A DNA stretch of 64,000 bases from positions 6,865,029-6,929,028 of the forward strand of contig CAVNZM010000016.1 of assembly GCA_963693365.1 (NCBI GenBank), read 5' to 3'. The number at the start of each line of letters is the position of its first letter. The stretch's first letter is position 1. A model generated the notes under the pieces. That model ran no database searches and was not told the DNA's origin. It worked only from the letters and a program-made list of their open reading frames with translations. This DNA is from Amoebidium appalachense. Lineage: Eukaryota > Protista > Ichthyosporea. The translations under genes were made by a program, and so were the position numbers. This document shows positions 1-62,688 of this stretch, piece after piece.

Positions 1-519
1 TAATAAGCAGAGCCCATCCTCAGGGGGGGCCCACGTCATCCACAGTACCCGAGTTTCGACCTATTCCCCTCGTTAACGAAACCCAACTCAGATACTGTTT
101 CACTTGAACATGAGTAGGTCACCCGTCTTGATCAGAGACGAGCAGGGTTGCTTATGCAGGCAAGGGCAGTGGGAAAGGCCGGGGGTTAAAGTTGCAGCAG
201 TAAGCAGAAGCAAGAAAAATATAGATAGGAACTCAGGAGACGGGGCTTCTAGGAAGCTCCCCCGTCGATACCTAAGTCGATACTTCCCTGGCTAACATAC
301 TACACCAGCTGAAAAGAATTAAGTCCCGAAGGCCGCAGAATTCGCAATCAGAGGGGAAAATATGAGATTTGACCCACGCCGCAGGGTAGTAACACGCTTA
401 CTAGGGCGGAACTTTATCGTCTTCGAACGGAAAGCTATGCCCCCGGATGTCAGCCGGAAATATGGTATCACCCATTGCTTTGGGCTTGAAAAAAGCCAAA
501 CCGATAGTCCGAGTTATGT
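1..519 (-). mobile_element. Dispersed repeat family, copy A (longest; 3' end off-window), in an SPT6 intron
   Basis: Bases 1-227 are near-identical to 7851-7978 and ~57015-57227 over the overlapping parts. Bases 228-519 are assigned by continuity up to a C-run next to the splice donor at 548. Confidence 0.75.
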
Positions 520-548
520 GGGGCGGGGGGGAAGAGGGTGTTGCTTAC

Positions 549-60300: not shown

Positions 60301-62688
60301 AAGGTTCGAATGACTAACGAAATCACACTTAGAGCAACCCTTCCCCCCCCACACACACATACACACACGGGCGTACACATTCATTCCTTCTCCCCTCCCC
60401 CCCCCCCCCCCCCCCTTCTCCCCCCGGTTAAGTCTGCCACCCGCTTTTAGCATATCCCCATGCAACCAATAAAAAACCACCGTTGCACATAGGAGCCCAC
60501 AAACACTAGCAAGCCAACCCCCCCCCCCCCCCCCCTCCCGCCGCGCTTTCTCAATACACTCCCATGAAATCAGCTCTACAGTAGGAAACACCCACACCCA
60601 CCTCTCCCACTCATAAATAACATCGCCTGTCTGTTGTCATACCCCTATGTTCCTAGTTTGGATGTCGGAGTTGAGGACTTAGGAGGAAAAACAAAAAACA
60701 AAAAGCAGAAACAAAGCGTTAAATGATATCAATAACTGGAGTCCGCACGCGCGCGCGCGCGCGCGCGCTGTGTGTGTGTGTGTGTGTGTGTGTGTGTGTG
60801 TGTGTGTGTGTGTGTGTGTGTGTGTGTGTGTGTGTGTGAATGAAGGGATGGGCTTGGTGTTGGTAGTGGGGATGGGGTCGGTGGCACTCAGAAGGTTTCA
60901 GTCCCGTTGGCGGTTAGAGGGGGGGGAGGGGGGGGGGGGGGGGGGGGGGGGGGGGGGGGCACAAGACGTGGGCGGGGTGACATATGCATCGAGATGATAT
61001 GAGATGGTCTTTGGGGGTTGGGGGCCCCCGGGGGCGAGGGGGGGGGGGAGGGGGGGGGGGGGGGACTCTACACACCTCGATATGCAGTACGGGGTCACCC
61101 ATTTTTTGCCAAGTCTGAAAGAGAACAAAGCCAATCAACCAACAGTGACTCTCTCTCTCTCTCTCTCCCCTCCCCCCCCCCCCCCCCCCCCCCCACATAA
61201 CCCACCCACCCACCCACCCACACACACACAGACACCCACCCACCCACACCATCAGTATTAAAAAAAAAAAAAAAAAAGCTCACCGGTGTCCCTAAATTCC
61301 ACCAGGACAGATTGTGGAGATAGTTTTTTCTTATGCAGCACAATGTGGCAAGGTGGGTAGATGGAGAGTATCGAAGGGGGGGCAGGGGGGGGAGAGAGGG
61401 AGAGGGAGAGGGGAGGGGGGAAGGGGGGAAGAGAGAGAGAGGAGGGGGGGGGGGAGGGGGGAAGAGAGAGAGAGGGGGAGGGGGGGGGGGGAGGGAAAAG
61501 AGAGAGAGAGAGAGAGAGAGAGAGAGAGAGAGAGAGAGAGAGAGAGAGAGAGAGAGAGAGAGAGAGAGAGAGGTGGGGAGAAGGGGGGGGGGGGGGGGGG
61601 GGGGATATTACAGGCATCTACAAAAGGGACAGGGAACGAAATAACAGAAAAAGGCGGAAAACGGTGGATGTGAAAATATCTTCGAAAGAGCGTAGGGGGC
61701 TGGGAGTGGTAGTGGTGGTGGTGGTGGTGGTGGGGGGGGGGGGGGGGGGGGGGGTTTGAATGCGTCATAAAGTACGAAATACACAAGAACTAACGGATAA
61801 CACGATGCAGAATGCAAACCATACATAAAGAGTATGCATAATAAGAAGAGCCCATTCTCAGGGGGGGCCCACGGGGGGGGGGGGGAGGGGGGGCAGAGAG
61901 AGAGAGAGAGAGAGAGTTGAGGCAACCCAAGGAGGGGTTAAAGGGGAAGGGGAAGGGGGGGGGGGGGGGGTACAAAATTTTGGTGGTGGTTAGACATATG
62001 TTTTATTTGCGAGGGATGCGTGCACCAGTCAGAGAAGAAGAAAAGGGCAACGGAAAGAAGATAAGAGAGAGGAGGGTGTGCTGTGGGTGTTGTTTTGTGT
62101 CACGAGGTGTGGCGTACAAACCCACAACTTTTATGTGAGGAGTCAGAAGGGAACACGTAACAGAGAGTATGCAACAGGACTATCCCTAAAACAGAACCTA
62201 GGGGGAGGATAGAACAATGAATCTCTGCACACGACTGCGATTCAAGACACCAAGAGAAGAGGAACATAAAGCATGGGGCAAAAAGGATGACTGCGACACA
62301 GAATTAATAGCCTGGCAGGGTAGGGGTGAGTTTGGGCGGGAGGGAGGGAGAGAGGGTGGGTGGGTGGGTGGGGAGGGGGACAAGGGGTTGTTGATTCGAG
62401 GCCGTGACACCCGTGGTGGTGGGCACGCATGTCTGTCTGTGTGTGTGTGCGTGTGTGCCCGAGAGAGGGGAGGGGCGGGGGAGGCCGGGGGTGGTGGTGG
62501 GGGGGGGGTTGGAAGGGAGGTGGTGTGTGTGTGTGTTGGGGGGGGGGGGGGGGGAGGGGGGGGGGGACTGGGGGGAGGGAGGGGGGACATACCTCCCACT
62601 CATTTCTGTCACTGTGCACGGTCACCCCGATGGCTGTGGGGTCGTAGAAGTGTTTGGCTGACTCGGTGCTCACTACCTGGATATCAGC
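57349..62688 (-). CDS. PPCDC: Phosphopantothenoylcysteine decarboxylase (HFCD flavoprotein, CoA biosynthesis); 5' exon(s) not located, probably beyond the right edge
   Basis: Exons 62688-62593 ([21 protein letters not shown]), 61114-61076 ([13 protein letters not shown]), 60152-60063 ([30 protein letters not shown]), 58945-58777 ([36 protein letters not shown]) and 57419-57349 (VGAMAEP..stop) splice in frame. Motifs LHIELR, PAMNxxMW and ACGDxG are characteristic of PPCDC/HAL3. Confidence 0.93.
61755..61873 (-). mobile_element. Dispersed repeat family, copy F (5'-truncated, ~118 bp), in a PPCDC intron
   Basis: Same 3' terminus followed by a C-run, a few substitutions, and a C-run at the 5' junction as well. 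Confidence 0.85.

What the first reader, a model, noticed from the sequence alone, without database searches (positions are those of the whole stretch)
1..61873. Poly-C-anchored, 5'-truncated retroelement family (possible Penelope-like lineage targeting C homopolymers)
Seen: six clear copies (1-519, 7767-7978, 36112-36227, 45615-45870, 56931-57227, 61755-61873). The five whose end is in the window stop at the same point (...GCATTCAAA or ...CCATTCAAA) directly followed by a C-run. The other end is cut at different points (~116, 118, 212, 250, 297 and >519 bp) and usually also abuts a C-rich tract. There is no poly-A tail and no terminal inverted repeat. Established: a fixed 3' end with variable 5' truncation is the signature of target-primed reverse transcription, and Penelope-like elements with an N-terminal endonuclease (Naiad/Chlamys clade) show microsatellite insertion bias. 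Inference: a recently active retroelement that uses poly-C/G tracts as its target, or carries a C tail and helps generate them. Such an element may be undescribed in this lineage.
Basis: partly seen in the sequence, partly recalled or inferred. Interest (0 to 1): 0.8.

Follow-up and report, generated by a model that had tools for sequence, protein, structure and literature searches.

The report
Retroelement family inserting into poly-C tracts
These are short, end-truncated copies of a very abundant jumping element that sit inside runs of C in this eukaryote's genes; it likely moves by reverse transcription like the already described Chlamys Penelope-like elements, so the habit is known, but no enzyme gene was seen and the family assignment is untested.

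Summary
The six copies are real and their coordinates are right; four older relics follow the same pattern. Five of five visible fixed ends stop at ...CATTCAAA before a C-run. The other end is cut at 116, 119, 212, ~256, 297 and ~603 nt. The C-runs are the target rather than a tail: both flanks are C-rich in 6 of 6 (P about 5e-7) and one copy has an 11-bp target-site duplication that supplies its Cs. Public runs show thousands of contigs on the element, depth falling towards the 5' end, and the element continuing past 519. This is the published behaviour of Chlamys Penelope-like elements (short, 5'-truncated, intronic, (C)n-targeted; consensi ending ...AA(C)n). No genome was held, so RT and endonuclease could not be found: membership is untested, about 60%. 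One unexplained extra: all copies lie in the sense of their host genes (P about 0.006 for six). Verdict: new member of a known kind, modest interest.

The parts
1..519 (-). Copy A: longest copy, 5'-truncated at 519, 3' end (84 nt) outside the window; in an intron of the Spt6 gene, sense
   Evidence: loose end at 519 in runs X2, X12, X14 and RNA contig skipping the region
7767..7978 (-). Copy B, 212 nt, C23 at 3' side; Spt6 intron, sense; 0 differences to A (128 nt) and C (116 nt)
36112..36227 (-). Copy C, 116 nt, flanked by a perfect 11-bp target-site duplication (36101-36111 and 36228-36238)
   Evidence: 0 of 4690 cuts inside C-runs show such a repeat without an insertion
45615..45870 (+). 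Copy D, ~256 nt, diverged subfamily (about 10% from the others), between C25 and C24 just upstream of a 3' splice site of the La gene, sense
56931..57227 (-). Copy E, 297 nt, about 110 nt downstream of the PPC decarboxylase stop codon, same strand
61755..61873 (-). Copy F, 119 nt, between C13 and C23; PPC decarboxylase intron, sense
13680..13788 (-). Older relic, same 3' end plus CCCC, 5' end at a C17 run
   Evidence: 30.2 bits, E 1.8e-9
24520..24665 (-). Older relic ending ...CATTCTAA before a long C-run, in an intron of the RNA exonuclease gene
   Evidence: 10.3 bits, E 0.002
33940..34079 (-). Probable relic with an internal tandem expansion, ending before a C-rich tract
   Evidence: 11.1 and 4.5 bits; weak
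37707..37830 (-). Probable relic in two pieces, ending ...GCATTCACCA before C14
   Evidence: 8.0 and 1.9 bits; weak
7873..7879 (-). Internal C7 tract, 107-113 nt from the 3' end: hot spot of 5' truncation (positions given for copy B)
   Evidence: loose end at 7879 with poly-G consensus in 78 contigs of run X7; copies C, F and the 13.7-kb relic stop 0-6 nt beyond it
398..517 (-). 38-codon frame, open at the truncated 5' end and closed by two stops: possible end of the element's ORF, unproven
   Evidence: no Pfam, homologue or Atlas support; weak post-hoc motif likeness

Best explanation
The copies are 5'-truncated insertions of an abundant mobile element that sits inside C-rich tracts, and it is likely a Chlamys-type Penelope-like retroelement that would insert by target-primed reverse transcription. 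Shown: fixed 3' end, variable 5' end, C-rich flanks on both sides, one 11-bp target-site duplication, several subfamilies, very high abundance, continuation beyond the longest copy. Inferred: an endonuclease nicks the G-rich strand inside a G-run; the G-ended primer pairs with Cs at the RNA 3' end (read-through into the donor's own C-run); the RT usually stops early and joins to the C-rich upstream target, often at the element's internal C7 tract; a staggered second nick gives the duplication. Inferred too: a master copy with GIY-YIG endonuclease and PLE RT, or an autonomous partner if this family is non-autonomous, exists elsewhere in the genome.
For: Anatomy. Genome-wide: 5,859 and 3,823 contigs laid on 900 nt in runs X2 and X7, summed depth falling from about 1.2 million to 0.41 million (X2) and 0.57 million to 0.03 million (X7) towards the 5' end, against 31 and 20 on the flank (the tool warns that this is no copy number). 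In X7, 10 of the 15 joints listed lead from points about 90-190 nt from the 3' end into G-rich sequence. In X7 the flank contig starts 7 letters before 520 without the element, where the X2 contig carries 26 element letters: a hint of an empty site. Match to Chlamys: (C)n preference in 13 of the 49 Chlamys-sheet rows; de novo insertions median 128 bp, all intronic, (C)n target; 5 of the 6 (C)n-family consensus ends that I saw end ...AA(C)n like this element; no canonical hammerhead in the last 603 nt, as for most Chlamys.
Against: No RT or GIY-YIG sequence seen; the 38-aa frame finds nothing in Pfam, the two protein databases (only unrelated repeat proteins) or the Atlas. No partial tandem (pLTR) or inverted 5' copy in the five complete copies. 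Two motifs of this element (9 and 14 nt) found no terminal match in the held, cut Chlamys/Naiad supplement. A target-site duplication is readable in only 1 of 5 copies. The host is not placed; if it is a unicellular holozoan it lies outside the Chlamys range given in the papers read (green lineage, slime mould, brown alga).
Confidence: 0.6

Rival explanations
1. A LINE-type non-LTR retrotransposon (RLE clades such as CRE, R4, NeSL, or APE clades such as Tx1, RTE-X), or a SINE-like passenger of one, that evolved (C)n targeting independently. Same insertion mechanism, different enzyme.
For: Fixed 3' end, 5' truncation, variable target-site duplication and microsatellite targeting are general non-LTR traits (established knowledge; abstract of PMC4640811 in the listing). 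No pLTR seen in the window.
Against: No poly-A or short-repeat tail; two literature searches listed no LINE with a (C)n target by title or abstract start; the AA(C)n end matches Chlamys consensi. No convincing pol III A/B box pair at a 5' end, but the true 5' end was not seen.
Confidence: 0.25
2. A canonical or endonuclease-lacking Penelope-like element (C-terminal GIY-YIG, or Coprina/Athena-like) with a decayed hammerhead.
For: A GAAAC-stem-GUA half core lies 125-140 nt from the 3' end (Rfam Hammerhead_1 14.2 bits, E 3.6). The 38-aa frame resembles a PLE linker motif (33 of 5000 shuffles match a pattern drawn after the fact); its place at the end of the RT thumb in canonical PLEs is recalled, not from a call.
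Against: The score is far below the gathering cut-off of 34; no CUGANGA precedes the GAAA; the region folds as a plain hairpin (z -2.9 on a hand-picked stretch); other subfamilies change the GUA (loose ends). Endonuclease-lacking PLEs are generally at chromosome ends (abstract), not in introns.
Confidence: 0.08
3. A rolling-circle DNA element (Helitron or Replitron) with one fixed end.
For: One fixed end and orientation-specific insertion with variable duplications occur in Replitrons.
Against: Replitrons keep both termini with short direct repeats and insert at RG; Helitrons end in CTRR after a hairpin and insert at A|T without duplication (established knowledge). Here the end is TTCAAA, the last 94 nt fold no better than shuffles (z -0.5), and truncation is heavy.
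Confidence: 0.04
4. The element carries a long C tail, inserts at random and is a main source of the genome's C/G runs.
For: Three of five 3' runs are 23-24 C; the window has 250 runs of 8 or more.
Against: 5' flanks are C-rich in 6 of 6 (P about 5e-7); in copy C the Cs belong to the target-site duplication; most of the 250 runs have no detectable element beside them (15 profile matches in all). A few added Cs per insertion are not excluded.
Confidence: 0.03

Closest known systems
Chlamys Penelope-like elements with (C)n preference (e.g. Chlamys-1, -2, -9_cRei; Craig et al. 2021, PMC8557442)
   Same: (C)n target, heavy 5' truncation, no poly-A, no canonical hammerhead, consensus ends ...AA(C)n, duplications mostly hidden by the repeat
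   Different: No sequence similarity shown; RT, GIY-YIG and CxC not seen; no pLTR seen; host probably another lineage (not established)
Chlamys-9_cRei / Chlamys-N4_cRei pair in Chlamydomonas mutation-accumulation lines (Lopez-Cortegano et al. 2023, PMC9977147)
   Same: Very short 5'-truncated, intronic insertions at (C)n (median 128 bp there; 116-603 nt here)
   Different: Activity observed directly there, only inferred here; no strand bias is mentioned in the section read
Naiad PLEs (animals)
   Same: Microsatellite bias, 5' truncation, hammerhead core fragments at most
   Different: Target is (TA)n or none in the metadata sheet, never (C)n
Microsatellite-targeting LINEs (R4/Dong, Waldo, Koshi/Kibi; recalled)
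   Same: Target-primed insertion into simple repeats
   Different: Other repeat units; none known to me at (C)n

Membership tests
TPRT retroelement (non-LTR or PLE) | Fixed 3' end with variable 5' truncation | tested here: met
   5 of 5 visible ends identical in place, two relics likewise; depth falls towards 5' in runs X2 and X7
TPRT retroelement (non-LTR or PLE) | Target-site duplication | tested here: met
   11 bp in 1 of 5 copies; 0 of 4690 control cuts; unreadable in the others because of homopolymers
TPRT retroelement (non-LTR or PLE) | Reverse transcriptase in a master or partner | not testable with these tools
   No genome held; metagenome and viral scans empty
Chlamys PLE | N-terminal GIY-YIG endonuclease without CCHH | not testable with these tools
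   Only the last ~600 nt are in the window
Chlamys PLE | CxC linker motif and PLE RT with insertion-in-fingers domain | not testable with these tools
   38-aa frame has no CxC and no database match
Chlamys PLE | No canonical hammerhead ribozyme near the 3' end | tested here: met
   Rfam none at gathering; best 14.2 of 34 bits; no full core by pattern in 4 copies; only the last 603 nt tested
Chlamys PLE | (C)n or (CA)n insertion preference (common, not universal) | tested here: met
Chlamys PLE | Partial tandems (pLTR) and inverted 5' copies | tested here: inconclusive
   None in five complete copies; a few go-back joints in contigs cannot be read as pLTRs; short copies often lack them
Canonical C-terminal EN+ PLE | Canonical hammerhead in the pLTR | tested here: not met
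LINE (APE or RLE) | Poly-A or short tandem 3' tail | tested here: not met
   Ends in AAA then target Cs; no polyadenylation hexamer; some LINE clades lack a tail (recalled)
Helitron / Replitron | CTRR end with hairpin and A|T site; or short direct terminal repeats with RG target | tested here: not met

The most novel reading that the evidence does not exclude
A (C)n-targeting retroelement in a eukaryotic lineage with no described Chlamys element (possibly a unicellular relative of animals), or a non-PLE that reached the same target independently, present in thousands of copies, whose insertion is coupled to host transcription: it would enter C-runs on the coding strand, i.e. nick and prime on the G-rich template strand, giving the 10 of 10 sense orientation seen here, the opposite of the antisense excess of animal L1 in introns (recalled).
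Probability: 0.3. Interest if true: 0.55.

Novelty: new member of a known kind. Interest (0 to 1): 0.33.

Why it matters
The habit itself is published, so the gain is incremental. If the master is a Chlamys or Naiad, it would extend that clade to another host lineage and give a high-copy system for the open question of how these elements choose microsatellites and whether they prime on a G-run as telomerase does. The sense-strand bias, if it holds genome-wide, would make transcription-coupled targeting versus selection directly testable.

Tried and rejected
Whole genome: none held. Pattern scans: two of metagenome contigs and one of viral contigs found 0 matches. Earlier findings: three look-ups, nothing. 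No holder on record as RNA; run X14 is only guessed to be RNA, so expression of the element is not shown. Protein searches with the 38-aa frame: Pfam 0, word-indexed search 0 at E 10, representatives 5 hits, of which the 4 scanned are repeat or unrelated proteins, Atlas low recognition. Hammerhead: rejected as canonical. Empty site at copy B: unreadable, contigs of X7 break in the G-runs. Horizontal transfer to the organisms of runs X8, X9, X12: they hold the element with 0 differences at depth 19-37 plus a second subfamily but no host flank or exon at 80%; trace host DNA explains this more simply, transfer is not excluded. Host placement: chitinase homologues are bacterial wherever named, the exonuclease exon gave 2 uninformative hits; a genome paper on one candidate lineage names no TE family. 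C-terminal ends of most Chlamys proteins were cut in the held supplement, so the motif could not be compared in place.

Full report
Observation. The six copies exist at the stated coordinates. On the element strand (minus for five, plus for 45615-45870), 5 of 5 visible ends stop at ...CATTCAAA and are followed by Cs; the other ends fall 116, 119, 212, ~256, 297 and about 603 nt away. A, B and C are identical where they overlap, E and F differ at about 2-7% of positions, D at about 10%, so there are young and older insertions. A profile search added relics at 13680-13788 (30 bits), 34016-34079 (11), 24563-24665 (10) and 37806-37830 (8), against at most 3.9 bits in 10 shuffled windows; two of them, aligned, end at the same place before Cs, and the other two do so by eye.

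Target or tail. The window is very rich in C/G runs (250 of 8 or more), so a null is needed. The 20 nt 5' of each copy hold 12-19 C in 6 of 6; random positions do so with P about 5e-7. Copy C is flanked by a perfect 11-bp direct repeat that begins with its five 3' Cs; 0 of 4690 cuts inside C-runs show such a repeat by themselves. The Cs are therefore target sequence. A few added Cs cannot be excluded in the pure homopolymer sites.

Beyond the window. No genome is held and three collection scans were empty. Twenty of 24 listed public runs hold the stretch or part of it. Laid on 1-900, run X2 gave 5,859 contigs and X7 3,823, with summed depth four orders above the flank and falling towards the 5' end (not a copy number). 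Three of four runs show the same loose end at 519, so copy A is truncated there; contig lengths suggest the element reaches at least about 830-900 nt from its 3' end (table 8). In X7, a strain with 9 differences in 381 flank letters, the flank contig is not joined to the element, a hint of an empty site. Laid on 6750-8760, X7 shows many other copies cut about 90-190 nt from the 3' end and running into G-rich DNA, with a pile-up (78 contigs) exactly at the element's internal C7 tract. This fits 5' joining by microhomology with the C-rich target (inference).

Host context. The host is an intron-rich eukaryote: Spt6 (HHH_9, HHH_7; one intron confirmed by a contig of run X14), a U2 snRNA, an RNA exonuclease, La, a GH18 chitinase and PPC decarboxylase. 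Its lineage was not established; the U2 5' end looks animal-like to me (recalled), which would suggest a unicellular holozoan. Five copies are intronic and one lies just past a stop codon. All six, and the four relics, are in the sense of the host gene. Given the strand content of C-rich sites per gene, P is 0.005-0.007 for six and 0.007-0.009 for the five intronic ones; by hand from the same fractions about 0.001 for ten. Caveats: the test was chosen after seeing the data, and the strand of the unit around 33-39 kb rests on splice-like exons only. Selection against antisense copies and transcription-coupled insertion both fit.

Coding and RNA signals. A 38-codon frame is open at the cut end of copy A and closes with two stops; read by eye it stays open through the 30 loose-end letters. 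It has no database support. It fits a pattern taken from the pre-CxC linker rows of Chlamys in the paper's Figure S4 text in 33 of 5000 shuffles, but the pattern was fitted afterwards and the position is not the expected one, so this is a lead only. There is no canonical hammerhead.

Comparison with the literature. PMC8557442 (abstract, passages, sections 9, 10, 20, supplement parts 1, 2, 6, 54, 56 and two searches) reports (CA)n and (C)n targeting for many Chlamys elements, frequent 5' truncation, lack of canonical hammerheads, and non-autonomous families; 13 of 49 rows of its Chlamys sheet list (C)n. Five of the six (C)n-family consensus ends I saw finish in AA followed by Cs; these families are related to each other, so this is not five independent matches. 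PMC9977147 (passages and section 7) saw de novo Chlamys insertions of median 128 bp, all intronic, at (C)n. PMC12477816 (passages) extends Chlamys to a brown alga. PMC10288648 (passages) gave the Replitron criteria. PMC11244446 (passages, first part of results, supplement search) names no TE family. Searches for a (C)n-targeting LINE, PLEs in Ichthyosporea and Chlamys orientation bias listed nothing relevant; only listings were seen, and the held supplement of PMC8557442 is cut, so unseen parts may bear on this.

Mechanism and verdict. It works like a Chlamys element: nick in the G-strand of a G:C run, priming on the RNA 3' end, early termination, C-guided 5' joining. That it is a target-primed retroelement entering existing C tracts I put at about 0.9; that it is Chlamys-type at 0.6, since RT, endonuclease and CxC could not be tested. 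The habit is already described, so this is a new member of a known kind. Interest 0.33, carried by the likely new host lineage, the high copy number and the unexplained sense bias.

Noticed in passing
window 49070-52631 (+): GH18 chitinase with ChiC and CBM_5_12 domains, split by one intron; every named homologue among the best 120 is bacterial (Vibrio, Photobacterium, Streptomyces; up to 64% identity): likely a bacterial gene taken up by this eukaryote.
   Followed up: partly
all ten copies and relics: Sense orientation to the host gene in every case, including Spt6 and La where G-runs dominate the coding strand.
   Followed up: partly
window 56850-56868 and 57251-57269: A 19-bp duplication brackets copy E but lies about 60 nt from its 3' end; could be a target-site duplication with a 3' transduction or extension, or an unrelated duplication.
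   Followed up: no
runs X8, X9, X12: Element present with 0 differences at low depth with no host flank: trace host DNA likely, horizontal transfer not excluded.
   Followed up: partly
window 35-110 (-): A 14-bp hairpin stem in the element 3' region holding a GAAAC...GUA hammerhead-like half core; a possible RT-recognition structure.
   Followed up: partly
window 21520-21711 (+): U2 snRNA gene, 170 bits, between the Spt6 and exonuclease genes.
   Followed up: no
window 26161-27089 and 32995-33217: Intronic minisatellites: 70-bp unit x 13.3 (96% matches) and 33-bp unit x 6.8.
   Followed up: no
whole window: 250 C or G runs of 8 or more (4,440 nt, 7% of the window); their strand skew differs by gene (G-rich coding strand in Spt6 and La, C-rich in the exonuclease and PPC decarboxylase genes).
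   Followed up: no
window 45871-45912: Copy D sits in the C-run just upstream of a 3' splice site of La, so the poly-C target may double as the polypyrimidine tract.
   Followed up: no
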